Of a stretch of DNA of 64,000 nt, positions 591-53,670 are shown in pieces. The stretch is taken from assembly GCF_041886205.1 (NCBI RefSeq), contig NZ_CP169029.1, one strand, 5' to 3'. The position numbers were made by a program, and so were the translations under genes. The notes below the pieces were generated by a model, which had not been told where the DNA came from, ran no database searches, and worked only from the letters and a program-made list of their open reading frames with translations. Position 1 is the first letter of the stretch; each line of letters begins with the position of its first letter. The DNA comes from Escherichia coli. Its GTDB lineage: Bacteria; Pseudomonadota; Gammaproteobacteria; Enterobacterales; Enterobacteriaceae.

Positions 591-1424
591 CTAGTACATT
601 CGGCGACTAAGGCCCATGATATCGAGGATCTTGGTGGCAATCTCTTCTACCGAATAATTGGTACTGTTAATCCACGGGATCTGATTTTTACGGTACAACG
701 CTTCCACTTCCGCGACTTCCATCCTGCACTGACGAAGCGAGGCATAGCGACTGTTCTCCCGACGCTCTTCACGAATCGCCGCCAGACGTTCCGGGTCGAT
801 AGTCAGGCCGAACAATTTATGCTGAAGCGGTTTGAGCGACGCGGGTAGCACCAGATTGTCCATATCGTCGGCAATAAAGGGGTAGTTTGCCGCGCGGATA
901 CCAAACTGCATTGCCAGATACAGACTGGTGGGGGTTTTACCACAGCGAGAAACACCGAGCAGGATCACCTGAGCCTGATCCAGATTGCGCAACGAAATGC
1001 CGTCATCGTGGGCGAGGGTGTAATCAATCGCCGCAATGCGCGCATCATATTTATTGAGATTATTAGGGTTAAGGCCATGGGTACGATGAGCAATCGGCGT
1101 TGGATCCAGTTTCATCTCTTGTTGTAGCGGGGCAACCAGCGCCTGAACGATATCCTGGCAAAAGCCTTCACTTTGCAAGATGATGGCGCGAATCTCCGGC
1201 AACACGATGGAGTAGAAGACCAGCGGGCGCACGCCTGTCTGGTGATAAATTGCGTCAATCTGATCCTTCACTGCCCGTGCACGGCTCTCATTTTCGACAA
1301 ACGGCAGCGTAATGCTGCTGATAGTGACGGGAAATTGTGACATTACTGCGTGTCCTAATACCTCCGCAGTTATTGCCGTACCATCAGAAATATAAAAAAC
1401 GTGGCGATCAACAGCATTATCCAT
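591..1424 (-). CDS. ppsR: PEP synthase regulatory protein (bifunctional kinase/pyrophosphorylase)
   Basis: 277-aa ORF in track; sequence recognised as PpsR (YdiA); divergent from ppsA as in K-12. Confidence 0.93.
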
Positions 1425-19032: not shown

Positions 19033-19170
19033 CGTGTAATGGCTGCATGAAATAAACAATAAAATATAAATAACATTATCAGCCTGCTGACGGCTTGAAG
19101 AGAGTCACAGTATCTTGTGCAACATTATTGGAAAGAGTGAGGGGCGAGGTAGCGAAGTGGAAAAATGTTA

Positions 19171-19275
19171 AAAAAAAGCCCATCGTGGGAGATGGGCAAA
19201 GACTACACACAGCAATTCGTTGTTTCACTCAGGGGATTTCCATGCTTATAAATCAATATGTTGATTTATAACCGT
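19171..19275 (-). ncRNA. rprA: RprA small regulatory RNA (RpoS translational activator)
   Basis: Reverse complement matches the RprA sequence I recall (ACGGTTATAAATCAACATATTGATTTATAAGCATGG...CCCACGATGGGCTTTTTTT), including intrinsic terminator; coordinates +/-2 nt. Confidence 0.85.
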
Positions 19276-24524: not shown

Positions 24525-24713
24525 ATGTCTACTCAACTTGATCCCACCCAGCTGGCCATTGAATTTTTACGCCGTGACCAGAGCAATCTTTCACCTGCCC
24601 AATATCTCAAACGTCTGAAACAACTAGAACTTGAATTTGCTGACCTGCTTACTCTCTCTTCTGCTGAATTAAAAGAAGAAATCTACTTTGCCTGGCGTCT
24701 GGGCGTGCATTGA
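24525..24713 (+). CDS. ydiH: small protein YdiH
   Basis: ORF 24444..24713; start chosen at MSTQLDPTQLAIEF giving 62 aa. Confidence 0.7.
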   Translation: MSTQLDPTQLAIEFLRRDQSNLSPAQYLKRLKQLELEFADLLTLSSAELKEEIYFAWRLGVH

Positions 24714-24937
24714 TCCTGACTTAATGCCGCAAGTTCGCCAAATCGACCTGGATTAACCTCCGTCCAGGTTCGATGACCTTCTTAATACTGCTTATCTACC
24801 GCCTGATATTGTTCAAAAATAATACTAATCGCAGTTTGTGTTAAAACGGCGGGTTAGCTTTATGAGATTATTCTTATCGCCCCTTCAAGAGCTAAGCCAC
24901 TGAGAGTGCCGGAGATAAGCGCCGGATGGGGTAGAAA

Positions 24938-24980
24938 CCCTTAAGCCTGTGTCGCACAGACTTAAGGGTTTTCTTATTTC
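24938..24980 (+). terminator. strong intrinsic terminator hairpin (CCCTTAAGCCTGTG…CACAGACTTAAGGG) followed by TTTTCTTATTT; possible 3' end of sRNA RydB
   Basis: Perfect inverted repeat plus U-tract seen in sequence, about 225 nt downstream of the ydiH stop. Confidence 0.6.
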
Positions 24981-25200
24981 TGAACGCTGCACTTTTTTAC
25001 CTATCTCTTAAATAGTCATTTTCAATACAACTTTTTCTTTTTCATCACAGCCTTAATGCTCCTTAGATAATAACCATTATCTAACAATGAGATACCTAAT
25101 TCTTAGCGTGCCTGTTAACCCACACATCAGGGTCTATGCTTATTAAAAGCAGGCAAAAAGCATGTTTTACGGTAAAGCCCCTGCGTTTGCTGGGTTGAAC

Positions 25201-25219
25201 TGATAATCATTATCACTAA
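25201..25219. promoter_or_regulatory. Fur box (TGATAATCATTATCA) in the sufA promoter
   Basis: Near-consensus Fur operator about 45 bp upstream of the sufA start; suf operon is known to be Fur-repressed. Confidence 0.7.
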
Positions 25220-25260
25220 CATGCTGTTATACGCTGAAAGCGATGAAGTGAGGTAAATCG

Positions 25261-25629
25261 ATGGACATGCATTCAGGAACCTTTAACCCACAAGATTTCG
25301 CCTGGCAAGGCTTAACGCTGACACCCGCAGCGGCGATACACATCCGTGAGCTGGTGGCAAAGCAGCCGGGTATGGTCGGCGTGCGCTTAGGCGTGAAGCA
25401 AACGGGCTGCGCGGGCTTTGGCTATGTGCTCGACAGTGTTAGCGAGCCGGACAAAGACGATCTGCTGTTTGAACACGACGGCGCGAAGCTGTTTGTCCCG
25501 CTGCAAGCGATGCCGTTTATTGATGGCACGGAAGTCGATTTCGTTCGTGAAGGACTTAATCAGATATTCAAATTTCACAACCCTAAAGCCCAGAATGAAT
25601 GTGGCTGTGGCGAAAGCTTTGGGGTATAG
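25261..25629 (+). CDS. sufA: Fe-S cluster A-type carrier
   Basis: 122-aa ORF with C-terminal CGCGESF motif. Confidence 0.95.
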
Positions 25630-42903: not shown

Positions 42904-43794
42904 TCAGGCTGCCAGATCATCGTTTCCGATGGAAGCATAATAAGCTTTTTCTGCTTCTGCCGGAGGAGTATGGCCCAGCCTTTCCAGCAATCGTCGATTG
43001 TTATACCAGTCCACCCACGTGAGTGTGGCCAGTTCCACTTCTGCACGGTTTTTCCAGCTCTTACGGTGTATTACCTCCGCTTTGTAAAGACCATTGATGC
43101 TCTCCGCCATCGCGTTGTCATACGAGTCGCCTGTACTTCCTGTTGATGCCAGTAATCCGGCTTCCTTAAGCCGCTGTGTGTAGGCCAGCGATACATACTG
43201 AGAACCTTTATCACTGTGATGGACCGTGCCGGACGGTCGACGGGCCCATAACGCCTGCTCCAGTGCATCCAGCACGAATGTCGTTTCCATGGACGATGAG
43301 ACCCGCCACCCCACGATGTATCCGGCAAACACATCAATGATGAACGCCACATAGACGAAGCCCCGCCATGTGCTGACGTAAGTAAAATCAGCCACCCACA
43401 GCTGGTCAGGTCGTTCTGCCACGAACTGACGGTTTACGCGGTCGCCTGCGGCAACGGCTTTCCGGCTGATGGTCGTACGGACCTTTTTACCCCGGAGAAC
43501 ACCGGCAAGTCCCATAACCGCCATGAGACGTGCCACAGTGCATCTGGCCACTCTGATACCTTCCCGTAACAACTGACGCCAGACTTTACGCACACCGTAT
43601 ACCTTGTGATTTTCATCGTATACGCGCTGTATCTCTTTCTTCAGCCAGTCATCGCGCTGCGCACGGGCACTGCGTTTATCCGGATGATGTCGCTGTTGCT
43701 GACAGTGGTAATACGTTGACGGGGCAATATGCAGTTCGCTGCATAGCGGTCCGACCCCGTACTGCTCACGCAGCTTATCCAGCAGTGGCATCAT
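42904..43794 (-). CDS. IS3-family transposase OrfB (DDE integrase core)
   Basis: 296-aa ORF; overlaps orfA 3' end at an A-run consistent with -1 frameshifting. Confidence 0.88.
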
Positions 43795-44117
43795 TTTTTC
43801 CAGAGGCGGTCGAACTCCGCCTTCGCAAAATAAGCGGAAGCCTGGCGAAGGATATCGTTACTGCGGCGCAGTTCACGATTTTCACGTTCCAGCTCTTTCA
43901 GACGCTGACGTTCAGCGGTGGTGAGCCCTCCATCACCGCCCCCGGTATCCCGCTCATGCTGGCGAACCCAGACACGCAGAGTCTCCGGCGTACAGCCAAT
44001 CTTTGGAGCAATGGAACAAATTGTCGCCCATTGTGAGTCATATTCGCTCTGACTTTCCAGAACCATACGGACTGCCCGTTGACGGACTTCGGGGGAAAAA
44101 CGAGTATTTTTAGTCAT
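43791..44117 (-). CDS. IS3-family transposase OrfA (HTH)
   Basis: 108-aa [26 protein letters not shown]... Confidence 0.88.
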
Positions 44118-44368
44118 CCTGTTTACCTCTTTCTCAGGAAGTTTAGTCTCCAGGATTCCCGGGGCGGTTCAAATCGACTCAGCAAGCGGTTTAAGCTGCT
44201 CAGCCATTGCGTCGCCAAATGGGCCATTAAAAGCAAAATGAAGTTGTAACAAAGTTGCCATAGCGATTCTCCTTCTGATAACGCATACGAAGACAGTGTA
44301 AATCTTTTAACGTATTGGATACAGAGAAGAAACAGAGGGAAAAAGGAGAAGACCAGATTAAGAAAATC

Positions 44369-44445
44369 TGGTGCGTCCGAGTGGACTCGAACCACCGACC
44401 CCCACCATGTCAAGGTGGTGCTCTAACCAACTGAGCTACGGACGC
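44369..44445 (-). tRNA. valW: tRNA-Val (GAC anticodon)
   Basis: Reverse complement reads GCGTCCGTAGCTCAGTTGGTTAGAGCACCACCTTGACATGGTGGGGGTCGGTGGTTCGAGTCCACTCGGACGCACCA; valV/valW assignment by position; +/-1 nt. Confidence 0.9.
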
Positions 44446-44449
44446 AGGA

Positions 44450-44526
44450 TGGTGCGTTCAATTGGACTCGAACCAACGACCCCCACCATGTCAAGGTGGT
44501 GCTCTAACCAACTGAGCTATGAACGC
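44450..44526 (-). tRNA. valV: tRNA-Val (GAC anticodon)
   Basis: Reverse complement reads GCGTTCATAGCTCAGTTGGTTAGAGCACCACCTTGACATGGTGGGGGTCGTTGGTTCGAGTCCAATTGAACGCACCA; +/-1 nt. Confidence 0.9.
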
Positions 44527-53117: not shown

Positions 53118-53161
53118 TCCATTTCACTCCAGACCCTAACTTCAGCTCCTGCAAAATCGCA

Positions 53162-53177
53162 AGGTAAACGTTTGCCT
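53162..53177. promoter_or_regulatory. PurR operator-like palindrome (AGGCAAACGTTTACCT) in the purR leader
   Basis: Match to PurR box core about 45 bp upstream of the purR start codon. Confidence 0.6.
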
Positions 53178-53415
53178 TTACACACCTTACGCACAACAAA
53201 AGTGTTGCGGTACGCCGGAAAAACGACACGGAGCGTCAGGAAGGGGTCAATGGCCAGTACGCAAATAGTGTAAGCGTGGAATTTTGGCCGATCTTGACGA
53301 AAAGGGGAAGTGGTAAAAACACTTATCATTATAAATGACGGGAGATTTTTTCATCACAGTGTGTAAAAATGCGTAATATCACTTTTTGTGTGGTAATAAA
53401 AAAGGAGAAAACTTG

Positions 53416-53505
53416 ATGAGCACCGACCTTAAATTTTCACTGGTAACAACGATTATCGTCCTCGGTTTGATCGTGGCCGTGGGTTTGACTGCCGCGCTGC
53501 ACTGA
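53416..53505 (+). CDS. ynhF: 29-aa single-TM small protein
   Basis: ATG preceded by AAAGGAGAAA RBS; translation MSTDLKFSLVTTIIVLGLIVAVGLTAALH; below the ORF-track length cutoff; +/-1 nt. Confidence 0.7.
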   Translation: MSTDLKFSLVTTIIVLGLIVAVGLTAALH

Positions 53506-53670
53506 TTTCCTCTCGAGGGAGCGCGTTCTCCCTCGCATCTCCTTCCTGTTTGTTAGCAAAATGGCAAAAGTGTTTTCTCTTTTTGTTATTTTCATTTTTT
53601 TGTGATTGCTGTCATGCTTTCGCCACTTTAATGAATATCGCGTAATGACGCGAAGAGGTGGAGATAAGGC

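What the first reader, a model, noticed from the sequence alone, without database searches (positions are those of the whole stretch)
24714..25260. Long ydiH–sufA intergenic region with an orphan terminator: candidate sRNA (RydB-like) upstream of the sufA control region
A strong intrinsic terminator at ~24938–24980 (plus strand) lies about 225 nt downstream of the ydiH stop, further than usual for that gene's own terminator. It sits in a 547-bp intergenic region that also holds a consensus Fur box at ~25201 and a second Fur-like repeat (GATAATAACCATTATC) at ~25065. I recall an sRNA (rydB) annotated between ydiH and sufA in K-12, but I cannot verify its sequence here.
Basis: partly seen in the sequence, partly recalled or inferred. 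Interest (0 to 1): 0.3.

Follow-up and report, generated by a model that had tools for sequence, protein, structure and literature searches.

The report
Known rydB sRNA gene and terminator
The "orphan" terminator belongs to rydB, a small RNA gene already annotated in E. coli K-12 between ydiH and sufA, so the finding is correct but not new; published 3'-end mapping shows that the abundant 61-nt RNA ends at the foot of the hairpin rather than after it.

Summary
The window is identical to E. coli K-12 here. K-12 annotates rydB (b4430) at window 24867-24934. The Rfam rydB model matches 24879-24939 over its full length (81.6 bits, threshold 50).

The hairpin is real: 24934-24972, -22 kcal/mol, z = -5, followed by UUUUCUUAUUU. 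It is conserved with compensatory changes in 25 related species, so it is best read as rydB's intrinsic terminator.

Published Term-seq (Adams 2021) reports one 3' end in the whole intergenic region. It lies at 24939, inside the 5' arm of the hairpin, with tRNA-like read counts. Nothing is reported at ~24980. Mature RydB is therefore about 61 nt and lacks its terminator, which I infer is removed by processing.

Upstream lies a conserved extended -10 (TGAGATTAT). Eighteen bp further up is a marbox-like site at 24828-24846. This site sits at the same position in most E. coli-type rydB copies across 38 flanking contexts. It fits the published SoxR-dependent induction of rydB.

The Fur box at 25196-25220 is the best Fur match in the 64 kb. 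The second "Fur-like" repeat scores at chance level, has the wrong half-site spacing and is only half conserved.

Verdict: already known, low interest, with modest new detail on RydB's promoter, maturation and paralogues.

The parts
24525..24713 (+). ydiH coding sequence (62 aa), the upstream neighbour
   Evidence: NC_000913.3 annotation mapped onto the window; ORF listing and sequence.
24828..24846 (+). Marbox-like element ATCGCAGTTTGTGTTAAAA, a candidate MarA/SoxS/Rob site read in the direction of rydB transcription. Its 20-bp form ends 18 bp before the -10 hexamer.
   Evidence: It matches AYNGCACNNWNNRYYAAAY at 12 of 14 specified positions. An equivalent element scoring 11-13 of 14 sits at a fixed offset in 49 of 56 E. 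coli-type rydB copies drawn from 38 flanking contexts, against a null of 7.7 +/- 1.1. rydB falls in the SoxR-dependent paraquat cluster 3 together with marR and marB. Binding was not tested.
24863..24871 (+). Extended -10 of rydB: TG-A-GATTAT. The predicted start site is G24879.
   Evidence: 'TGAGAnnAT' is conserved immediately upstream of helix P1 in orthologues and in paralogues from other contexts. The start site is inferred from the spacing and from position 1 of the Rfam model; no start-site data were seen.
24867..24934 (+). rydB as annotated in K-12 (b4430, 68 nt)
   Evidence: NC_000913.3 1764713..1764780 (-), converted with k = 1789647 - w.
24879..24939 (+). Mature RydB RNA (61 nt): helix P1 (CCCC/GGGG), junction AAGAGCUAAGCC, hairpin GCCGG-AGAUAAGC-GCCGG and an 8-nt 3' tail
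   Evidence: Full-length Rfam RF00118 match, 81.6 bits against a threshold of 50, E = 1e-19. The Term-seq 3' end at 1764708(-) equals window 24939, with 2.2e6 and 4.1e6 reads. P1 covaries across 57 family members.
24934..24972 (+). Terminator hairpin: an 18-bp stem with one C/A mismatch and a 3-nt loop
   Evidence: -22 kcal/mol, z = -4.97. Inverted repeat confirmed. In 25 orthologues 93.6% of cells are paired, 6 pairs changed on both sides, and 0-1 of 500 shuffles do as well.
24969..24983 (+). U-rich tract TTTTCTTATTTCT; its first four T also pair at the base of the stem
   Evidence: Read from the sequence. TTTT directly after GGG is invariant in 25 of 25 orthologues.
24999..25035 (+). Conserved block CCTATCTCTTAAATAGTCATTTTCAATACAAC containing CTAT-N7-ATAG, taken to be the far-upstream OxyR site of sufA. 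This is context, not part of rydB.
   Evidence: Nearly invariant across Escherichia, Citrobacter and Leclercia. A review states that the OxyR site lies far upstream of the sufA promoter and needs IHF. The exact published coordinates are recalled from memory only.
25044..25081 (+).
   Evidence: Promoter scan. The same hexamer pair is listed for sufA in a genomic SELEX table. Fur score 13 of 19, at chance level. Only the CATTAT half is conserved in Citrobacter.
25196..25220 (+). Fur box over the sufA core promoter, between -35 TTGAAC (25195-25200) and -10 TAACAT (25218-25223)
   Evidence: 15-16 of 19 matches to the Fur consensus, the top score in the window. Invariant across the aligned species.
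25261..25629 (+). sufA coding sequence, the downstream neighbour

Best explanation
The region holds the known small-RNA gene rydB as a compact transcription unit of its own, placed between ydiH and the control region of the suf operon. I propose four steps.

1. Transcription starts at about G24879. It is driven by an extended -10 (TGAGATTAT, 24863-24871). The position where a -35 would lie is occupied by a marbox-like site (24828-24846), so MarA/SoxS/Rob-type activators switch the gene on. This step is inferred.
2. The RNA folds into a conserved core closed by helix P1. This is shown by covariation.
3. RNA polymerase stops at the intrinsic terminator, hairpin 24934-24972 plus U-tract. That gives a primary transcript of about 100 nt. 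It also keeps ydiH and rydB transcription out of the OxyR/IHF/IscR/Fur-controlled sufA promoter. This step is inferred from the anatomy and conservation of the hairpin.
4. The terminator is then removed. This could happen by an endonuclease cut in or near the 5' arm, or by 3'-exonuclease trimming back to about 8 nt beyond P1. The result is the very abundant 61-nt RNA ending at C24939. The 3' end is shown by published Term-seq; the enzyme is unknown.

Mature RydB therefore lacks a terminator hairpin and U-tail. That fits its listing among Hfq-independent sRNAs and its weak Hfq co-purification. Its cellular target remains unknown. The papers read here describe it only as a regulator of rpoS expression.
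For: - Identity: the region is 100% identical to K-12. b4430 maps to 24867-24934. The Rfam rydB match covers the full model at 81.6 bits.
- Hairpin: (z = -4.97), and conservation with compensatory changes plus an invariant TTTT in 25 orthologues.
- Family pattern: about two thirds of rydB-family copies in other genomic contexts also have a hairpin plus T-run within about 35-80 nt of the core. Salmonella annotates rydB at 105 nt, which is the length of core plus terminator. A 2025 survey tags rydB with a Rho-independent terminator.
- 3' end: the only one in the intergenic region is at 24939. Counts are 2.2e6 and 4.1e6 reads, comparable with tRNA aspV at 3.5e6.
- Promoter: the extended -10 and the marbox-like element are conserved at a fixed distance in 49 of 56 copies from 38 contexts. 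rydB belongs to a SoxR-dependent, paraquat-induced cluster with marR and marB.
- Independence from ydiH: in Citrobacter the same promoter-core-terminator module follows a LysR-type gene instead of ydiH, and in Pantoea, Raoultella and Hafnia it sits in unrelated loci.
- Hfq: listed as Hfq-independent; only 2.5-fold enriched with Hfq in Salmonella.
Against: - No 3' end at the U-tract appears in the Term-seq tables, so termination at this hairpin has not been observed directly.
- I could not see any 5'-end data. Two start-site supplements held nothing for this locus, and the key papers are not in the library.
- The marbox consensus is so degenerate that the match alone is at chance level in the window: 14 hits against 18 expected.
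- The 18-bp class II geometry is recalled from memory.
- The mature RNA's predicted folding energy is no better than shuffles (z = -0.01).
- The U-tract in E. coli is interrupted (UUUUCUUAUUU).
Confidence: 0.75

Rival explanations
1. The hairpin is ydiH's own distal terminator, and RydB is a fragment cut out of the ydiH 3' untranslated region rather than an independent transcript.
For: No canonical terminator lies between the ydiH stop and rydB. The only structure there is a bulged hairpin at 24742-24774 without a U-tract. Term-seq lists no 3' end between ydiH and 24939, so ydiH transcripts may well run into rydB. ydiH has a promoter-like site of its own.
Against: The rydB core, together with its conserved upstream TGAGAnnAT and marbox-like element, occurs without ydiH. 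It follows a LysR gene in Citrobacter and lies in unrelated loci in Pantoea, Raoultella and Hafnia. RydB 3'-end counts are at tRNA level, far above what a poorly expressed 62-aa gene would be expected to supply.
Confidence: 0.1
2. The hairpin is mainly a processing signal, for example for RNase III, that defines the RydB 3' end. It terminates little, so some transcription reads through towards suf.
For: The mapped 3' end at C24939 lies inside the paired 5' arm, two bases into the G+C part of the stem. No 3' end is reported at the U-tract. The outer stem sequence CCCTTAAG/CTTAAGGG is conserved at the sequence level more strongly than pairing alone requires.
Against: A U-run directly after the stem is invariant in 25 of 25 orthologues. 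Paralogues carry unrelated hairpins that still end in T-runs, which is the signature of intrinsic terminators. sufA is reviewed as having its own promoter under OxyR/IHF, IscR and Fur control. An 18-bp stem with a mismatch is short for RNase III (from memory).
Confidence: 0.1
3. The RydB core is a cis-acting sensor (riboswitch-like aptamer) and the hairpin is its expression platform, gating read-through into the suf operon.
For: The core has the look of an aptamer: a covarying closing helix, a junction and a loop that are invariant, and a variable-length middle hairpin. The 3' strand of P1 lies only 2-6 nt from the terminator's 5' arm.
Against: Flanking genes of the family share no common theme: LysR regulators, a phosphatase, PTS EIICB, a solute-binding protein, an MscS-like channel, OsmC, a heptosyltransferase and a short-chain dehydrogenase. 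The downstream gene is often on the opposite strand. The RNA accumulates as an abundant free 61-mer. The only alternative pairing I could find by eye is a 3-4 bp GGG/CCC helix, which cannot compete with an 18-bp terminator. sufA is about 280 nt further on with its own promoter.
Confidence: 0.04

Closest known systems
RydB sRNA (E. coli K-12 b4430; Rfam RF00118; also called tpe7 or IS082)
   Same: It is this gene. The sequence is identical to K-12, the synteny is ydiH-rydB-sufA, the strand is the same, and the Rfam match is full length.
   Different: The database coordinates (24867-24934, 68 nt) differ from the ends suggested here. The 5' end would be about 24879, from the Rfam model and promoter spacing, and the 3' end 24939, from Term-seq. 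The annotation does not mention the adjoining terminator, which Salmonella annotation (105 nt) seems to include.
Intrinsic (Rho-independent) terminators of enterobacterial sRNA genes
   Same: A G+C-containing stem-loop followed by a U-run, placed directly after the RNA body and conserved by compensatory change.
   Different: In typical Hfq-dependent sRNAs the terminator hairpin and U-tail are kept in the mature RNA and form the Hfq-binding module (general knowledge). Here the abundant species ends inside the 5' arm, so the terminator is lost.
Class II MarA/SoxS/Rob-activated promoters (for example micF, fumC, inaA)
   Same: A forward-oriented marbox-like 20-mer occupies the -35 position 18 bp upstream of the -10 hexamer. 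Published induction by paraquat is SoxR-dependent.
   Different: Binding and activation have not been shown for rydB. The geometry rule and the comparison promoters are recalled from memory. A 2024 preprint states that RydB has no known transcription factor.
GlmZ, an sRNA inactivated by cleavage that removes its 3' part (from memory)
   Same: It is a precedent for an enterobacterial sRNA whose abundant form is a 5' fragment lacking the original 3' end.
   Different: For GlmZ the cut inactivates the RNA and needs an adaptor protein. For RydB the truncated form is the only form reported, and the enzyme is unknown.

Membership tests
RydB RNA (Rfam RF00118 / E. coli b4430) | Sequence-and-structure match to the family covariance model above the curated threshold | tested here: met
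   81.6 bits against a gathering score of 50, model positions 1-61 of 61, E = 1e-19.
RydB RNA (Rfam RF00118 / E. coli b4430) | Location between ydiH and sufA on the same strand as both, as in K-12 | tested here: met
   NC_000913.3 annotation mapped onto the window. The intergenic region is 100% identical to K-12 MG1655.
RydB RNA (Rfam RF00118 / E. coli b4430) | A stable transcript of about 60 nt | tested here: met
   The published Term-seq 3' end at 24939 coincides with the end of the 61-nt Rfam match. The original ~60-nt northern result is recalled from memory because the paper is not held.
RydB RNA (Rfam RF00118 / E. coli b4430) | Consensus secondary structure supported by covariation | tested here: met
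   All 5 pairs of P1 show double changes across 57 family members. The second hairpin was invariant by the way the sequences were collected, so it is uninformative. Thermodynamic folding alone gives no support (z = -0.01).
Intrinsic (Rho-independent) terminator | Stable G+C-containing stem-loop immediately followed by a U-rich tract | tested here: met
   -22 kcal/mol, z = -4.97. The tail is UUUUCUUAUUU. The tool's strict scan missed it, which I attribute to the stem mismatch.
Intrinsic (Rho-independent) terminator | Conservation of the pairing and of the U-tract in relatives | tested here: met
   25 orthologues: 93.6% of cells paired, 6 pairs with double changes, TTTT invariant.
Intrinsic (Rho-independent) terminator | RNA 3' ends mapping to the U-tract in vivo | tested here: not met
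   The Adams 2021 Term-seq tables list no 3' end at 1764667-1764680 in any of three conditions. The only one is at 1764708, which is window 24939. Fast processing could hide the primary end, so this lowers the claim without excluding it.
Intrinsic (Rho-independent) terminator | Termination by purified RNA polymerase in vitro | not testable with these tools
   Needs a single-round in vitro transcription assay.
Fur box (site at 25196-25220) | Match to the 19-bp consensus GATAATGATAATCATTATC, with GATAAT-N1-ATTATC half-site spacing, overlapping a promoter | tested here: met
   15-16 of 19 matches, the top score in 64 kb. Spacing is N1. The site lies between the -35 and the -10 and is invariant in the aligned species.
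Fur box (second repeat at 25066-25081) | The same consensus and half-site spacing | tested here: not met
   13 of 19 matches, reached by 17.5% of shuffled intergenic regions. Spacing is N4, not N1. The 5' half is not conserved in Citrobacter or Leclercia.
Class II mar/sox/rob promoter | Marbox consensus AYnGCACnnWnnRYYAAAY in forward orientation about 18-19 bp upstream of the -10 hexamer | tested here: inconclusive
   12 of 14 specified positions and an 18-bp distance. On its own the match is at chance level (14 hits against 18 expected). However, the element is conserved at this offset in 49 of 56 copies from 38 contexts. The distance rule is from memory.
Class II mar/sox/rob promoter | Activator-dependent expression and direct binding | not testable with these tools
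   Published arrays place rydB in a SoxR-dependent paraquat cluster. No binding data were seen.

The most novel reading that the evidence does not exclude
RydB may not be a lone seed-pairing sRNA. It may be the E. coli member of a family of paralogous RNAs found across Enterobacterales, present in two or more copies per genome in Pantoea, Erwinia, Rouxiella and Serratia. The family shares a rigid core: a covarying closing helix, an invariant junction AGAGCUAA and an invariant GCCGG-AGAUAAGC-GCCGG hairpin. Each copy is wired to a different regulator: a marbox in the E. coli type, a CRP-like TGTGA-N6-TCAC site in the Sodalis type, and another palindrome in the Atlantibacter/Kosakonia type. Each is matured by loss of its own terminator. 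On this reading the core acts by binding a protein or small molecule rather than by base-pairing. It would form a common output for several stress inputs, placed in E. coli next to the oxidative-stress-controlled suf operon.
Probability: 0.2. Interest if true: 0.5.

Novelty: already known. Interest (0 to 1): 0.2.

Why it matters
The finding itself matters little. rydB has been annotated in E. coli K-12 since 2001, and the sufA Fur box is textbook material.

The check has three practical uses.

- It shows that a reader working from sequence alone can recover a real sRNA gene from an "orphan" terminator.
- It flags that database coordinates for rydB (68 nt, no terminator) do not describe either the likely primary transcript (about 100 nt) or the mapped mature RNA (61 nt). 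RefSeq's pipeline leaves the gene unannotated in the complete E. coli genome records listed by the searches.
- It gives testable leads for an sRNA that a 2024 study still describes as having no known target or transcription factor. These leads are a conserved marbox-type promoter and maturation by terminator removal, which would explain weak Hfq dependence.

Tried and rejected
**Tools and papers that gave nothing**
- The built-in terminator scan returned 0 sites. I treat this as a false negative, most likely because the stem has one mismatch. Folding, the repeat finder and covariation all support the hairpin.
- Start-site evidence could not be obtained. The Cappable-seq and SMRT-Cappable-seq supplements held no rows for this locus. 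Wassarman 2001 and Thomason 2015 are not in the library.
- Two literature searches were wasted on "Rydberg" and on the botanical author abbreviation "Rydb.".

**Ideas considered and rejected**
- Riboswitch or cis-regulator: rejected because family members have unrelated and often convergent neighbours.
- Twister-ribozyme resemblance (GCCGG..AAGC.CCGGAU): a lead from memory only. Rfam gave no twister hit at E <= 1. The strong Term-seq signal also suggests a 3'-OH end, which ligates, rather than the cyclic phosphate a ribozyme would leave.
- tRNA-like element: ARAGORN found none.
- Sigma-54 promoter for the conserved TGGCA...TGCT upstream element: rejected because the GG-to-GC spacing is 8 nt rather than 10 (read from the sequences).
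- Marbox match taken as evidence on its own: rejected, with 14 hits against 18 expected in the window. Only the positional conservation counts.
- Second Fur box: rejected.
- Inverted repeat 25156-25166 / 25218-25228 flanking the sufA promoter: not conserved in Citrobacter, so probably chance.

Full report
**What is in the sequence.** The window is the reverse complement of E. coli K-12 around 1.76 Mb. The 547-bp stretch 24714-25260 is 100% identical to MG1655 and to many other strains, and it is present in 5421 of 5426 complete E. coli genomes. ydiH ends at 24713 and sufA starts at 25261. It has 17-nt arms at 24935-24951 and 24955-24971 that are 94% complementary. Extended by A-U and G-U pairs, it spans 24934-24972. 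Its energy is -22 kcal/mol against -10.1 +/- 2.4 for shuffles, giving z = -4.97. It is followed by TTTTCTTATTT. The simple terminator scan missed it, which I attribute to one C/A mismatch interrupting the stem.

**Identity.** A scan of the whole window against Rfam gives a full-length match to rydB (RF00118) at 24879-24939 on the + strand, at 81.6 bits against a threshold of 50. The K-12 record annotates rydB (b4430, "small regulatory RNA RydB") at 1764713..1764780 on the complement strand. With k = 1789647 - w, that is window 24867-24934. RefSeq's pipeline annotation shows nothing here in the other E. coli records listed by the searches.

**Where the RNA ends.** The Term-seq tables of Adams et al. 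2021 (PMC7815308) cover three growth conditions. They list exactly one 3' end anywhere between coordinates 1764400 and 1764999. It is at 1764708 (-), which is window C24939, and it is classified as the primary 3' end of rydB. The printed flanking sequence confirms the position...GGGTAGAAAC-C-CTTAAGCCTG. Read counts are 2.17 million in the LB OD 0.4 sheet and 4.14 million in a second sheet. For comparison, tRNA aspV has 3.5 million and sgrS has 6,222 in the LB OD 0.4 sheet. The 3' end coincides with the last position of the Rfam model. It lies two bases into the G+C part of the hairpin's 5' arm and 8 nt after helix P1. The abundant RNA is therefore a 61-mer without the terminator. I recall that the original northern blots gave about 60 nt, but that paper is not held. 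No end is reported at the U-tract.

**Is the hairpin still a terminator?** I collected rydB-like loci from 100,044 species genomes using the invariant 18-mer GCCGGAGATAAGCGCCGG. In 25 orthologous loci from Escherichia, Citrobacter, Salmonella, Silvania and Leclercia the hairpin occupies the same place, 2-6 nt after P1. Across these loci 93.6% of cells are paired and six pairs changed on both sides. Only 0-1 of 500 shuffles do as well, and controls with the partner columns slid sideways fall to 19-65% paired. TTTT directly after the stem is invariant. Citrobacter koseri carries a different long hairpin at the same place. About two thirds of family members in quite different loci also have a hairpin plus T-run shortly after the core. 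Salmonella annotation gives rydB 105 nt, the length of core plus terminator, and a 2025 survey tags rydB with a Rho-independent terminator. I conclude that this is rydB's intrinsic terminator and that the primary transcript of about 100 nt is trimmed to 61 nt. The trimming step is inferred and the enzyme is unknown. A 3' tail of 8 nt beyond a stable helix is what 3' exonucleases typically leave (from memory). A cut inside the stem by a double-strand-specific nuclease is the alternative.

**Promoter.** No standard -35/-10 pair precedes rydB. I aligned 56 "E. coli-type" copies on the core. This shows a conserved TGAGAnnAT just upstream of P1 (window TG-A-GATTAT, 24863-24871), which reads as an extended -10 that would start transcription at about G24879. 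It also shows a second conserved block, GCA-N6-RYYAAA, about 30 nt further up. In the window this block is ATCGCAGTTTGTGTTAAAA (24828-24846). It fits the MarA/SoxS/Rob "marbox" consensus AYnGCACnnWnnRYYAAAY at 12 of 14 specified positions and is read in the direction of transcription. The pattern alone means nothing in this window: 14 matches against 18 expected. What counts is that an element scoring 11-13 of 14 sits at the same offset in 49 of 56 copies. These copies were drawn from 38 different flanking-gene contexts, and shuffles give 7.7 +/- 1.1. Independently, Blanchard et al. 2007 list RydB among SoxR-dependent regulators of the paraquat response. They place rydB in their cluster 3 together with marR and marB. 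A 2024 preprint still says that RydB has no known transcription factor. Binding has not been tested.

**Independence from ydiH.** In Citrobacter the same promoter-core-terminator module follows a LysR-type regulator gene instead of ydiH. In Pantoea, Raoultella, Hafnia, Klebsiella and others it lies in unrelated loci. This argues against RydB being merely a piece of the ydiH 3' UTR. Read-through from ydiH is still possible, because the only structure in between is a bulged hairpin at 24742-24774 with no U-tract.

**The RydB family.** Of 121 hits to the 18-mer, 105 carry the full motif. The closing helix P1 covaries: GCCCC/GGGGC, GCUCC/GGAGC, GUCCCU/AGGGAC, AUCCUU/AAGGAU and others. The junction AGAGCUA and the second hairpin are invariant, and the middle hairpin varies in length. 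Several genomes carry two copies that pass Rfam's rydB threshold, whereas E. coli has one. Neighbouring genes share no theme, so a cis-regulatory role is unlikely. A second subfamily has different promoters. Thermodynamic folding of the 61-mer is unremarkable, and ARAGORN finds no tRNA-like gene.

**The rest of the intergenic region.** The alignment of 17 loci shows a nearly invariant block at 24999-25035 containing CTAT-N7-ATAG. I take this to be the far-upstream OxyR site that a review describes for sufA; the exact published coordinates are from memory. The Fur box over the sufA core promoter (25196-25220) matches 15-16 of 19 positions, the best score in the 64 kb, and is invariant. The second "Fur-like" repeat (25066-25081) scores 13 of 19, which is chance level. 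Its half-sites are 4 nt apart instead of 1, and only its CATTAT half is conserved beyond Escherichia, next to an IHF-like AATCAA-N4-TTG in Citrobacter. Its GATAAT half is the -10 of a promoter-like pair, ATCACA-16-GATAAT. A genomic SELEX study lists the same pair for sufA.

**Verdict.** It is wrong on the position of the mature 3' end and on the second Fur site. The feature is already known and interest is low. The conserved marbox-type promoter, the loss of the terminator from the mature RNA and the multi-copy family are modest, testable additions.

Noticed in passing
window 25044-25081: A promoter-like pair ATCACA-16-GATAAT points towards sufA about 190 bp upstream of the ATG. A genomic SELEX table lists the same hexamers as a constitutive sigma-70 promoter for sufABCDSE. 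Citrobacter has TTGACC at the aligned -35 position. This could be a second, upstream suf promoter.
   Followed up: partly
window 24742-24774: A bulged 12-bp hairpin (AUCGACCUGGA...UCCAGGUUCGAU) lies about 30 nt after the ydiH stop, with no U-tract and no Term-seq 3' end. It may stabilise the ydiH mRNA, or it may be chance.
   Followed up: no
L007 about 760-870 (- strand); also L041, L042, L084, L089, L116: In Sodalis, Acerihabitans and related genomes the rydB-like copy and its terminator are followed by a conserved ~70-nt element: CAGAAAAGCGCATCGGCTACTTACCTCCTCG-AAAG-AGGGAGTACAGCAAAGGTTGTCGGTGCGC. It has a possible 10-bp outer helix (GCGCAUCGGC/GUCGGUGCGC). It has no Rfam match, even at E <= 1.
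   Followed up: partly
L007, L041, L042, L084, L089, L116 and L043, L108, L109, L013, L082, L114 (upstream of the rydB-like cores): The second (AAC-type) subfamily has other promoter modules. The Sodalis type has a CRP-like TGTGATAATTATCAC site. The Atlantibacter/Kosakonia type has TTGATC-17-TATTGT with a palindrome such as GGAATAATCC in the spacer. Paralogues therefore seem to answer to different regulators.
   Followed up: partly
L043 3936-4000 and 4271-4416; L056: In Atlantibacter a rydB-like copy lies about 270 bp from the SraC/RyeA-SdsR/RyeB sRNA pair and upstream of a PphA-like phosphatase gene. The Erwinia locus L056 also holds both a rydB-like copy and this sRNA pair, though about 12 kb apart.
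   Followed up: no
window 19168-19275 (-), 53118-53508 (+), 43720-43836 (-), 44245-44526: Other Rfam hits in the window: RprA sRNA, STnc550, an ALIL frameshift pseudoknot (which suggests an IS3-family insertion sequence), and two tRNA genes overlapped by an HPnc0260 antisense-RNA match.
   Followed up: no
window 24816-24844 (- strand): A promoter-like site, TTAACA-17-TATTTT, lies on the minus strand and points back towards ydiH. It overlaps the marbox-like element. It is probably a chance match in A+T-rich DNA.
   Followed up: no
window 24879-24939, in all complete E. coli genomes: rydB is present as a single copy at 95% identity or better in 5421 of 5426 complete E. coli genomes. The RefSeq pipeline records listed by the searches show no annotated feature under it; the feature was seen only in the curated K-12 record.
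   Followed up: yes
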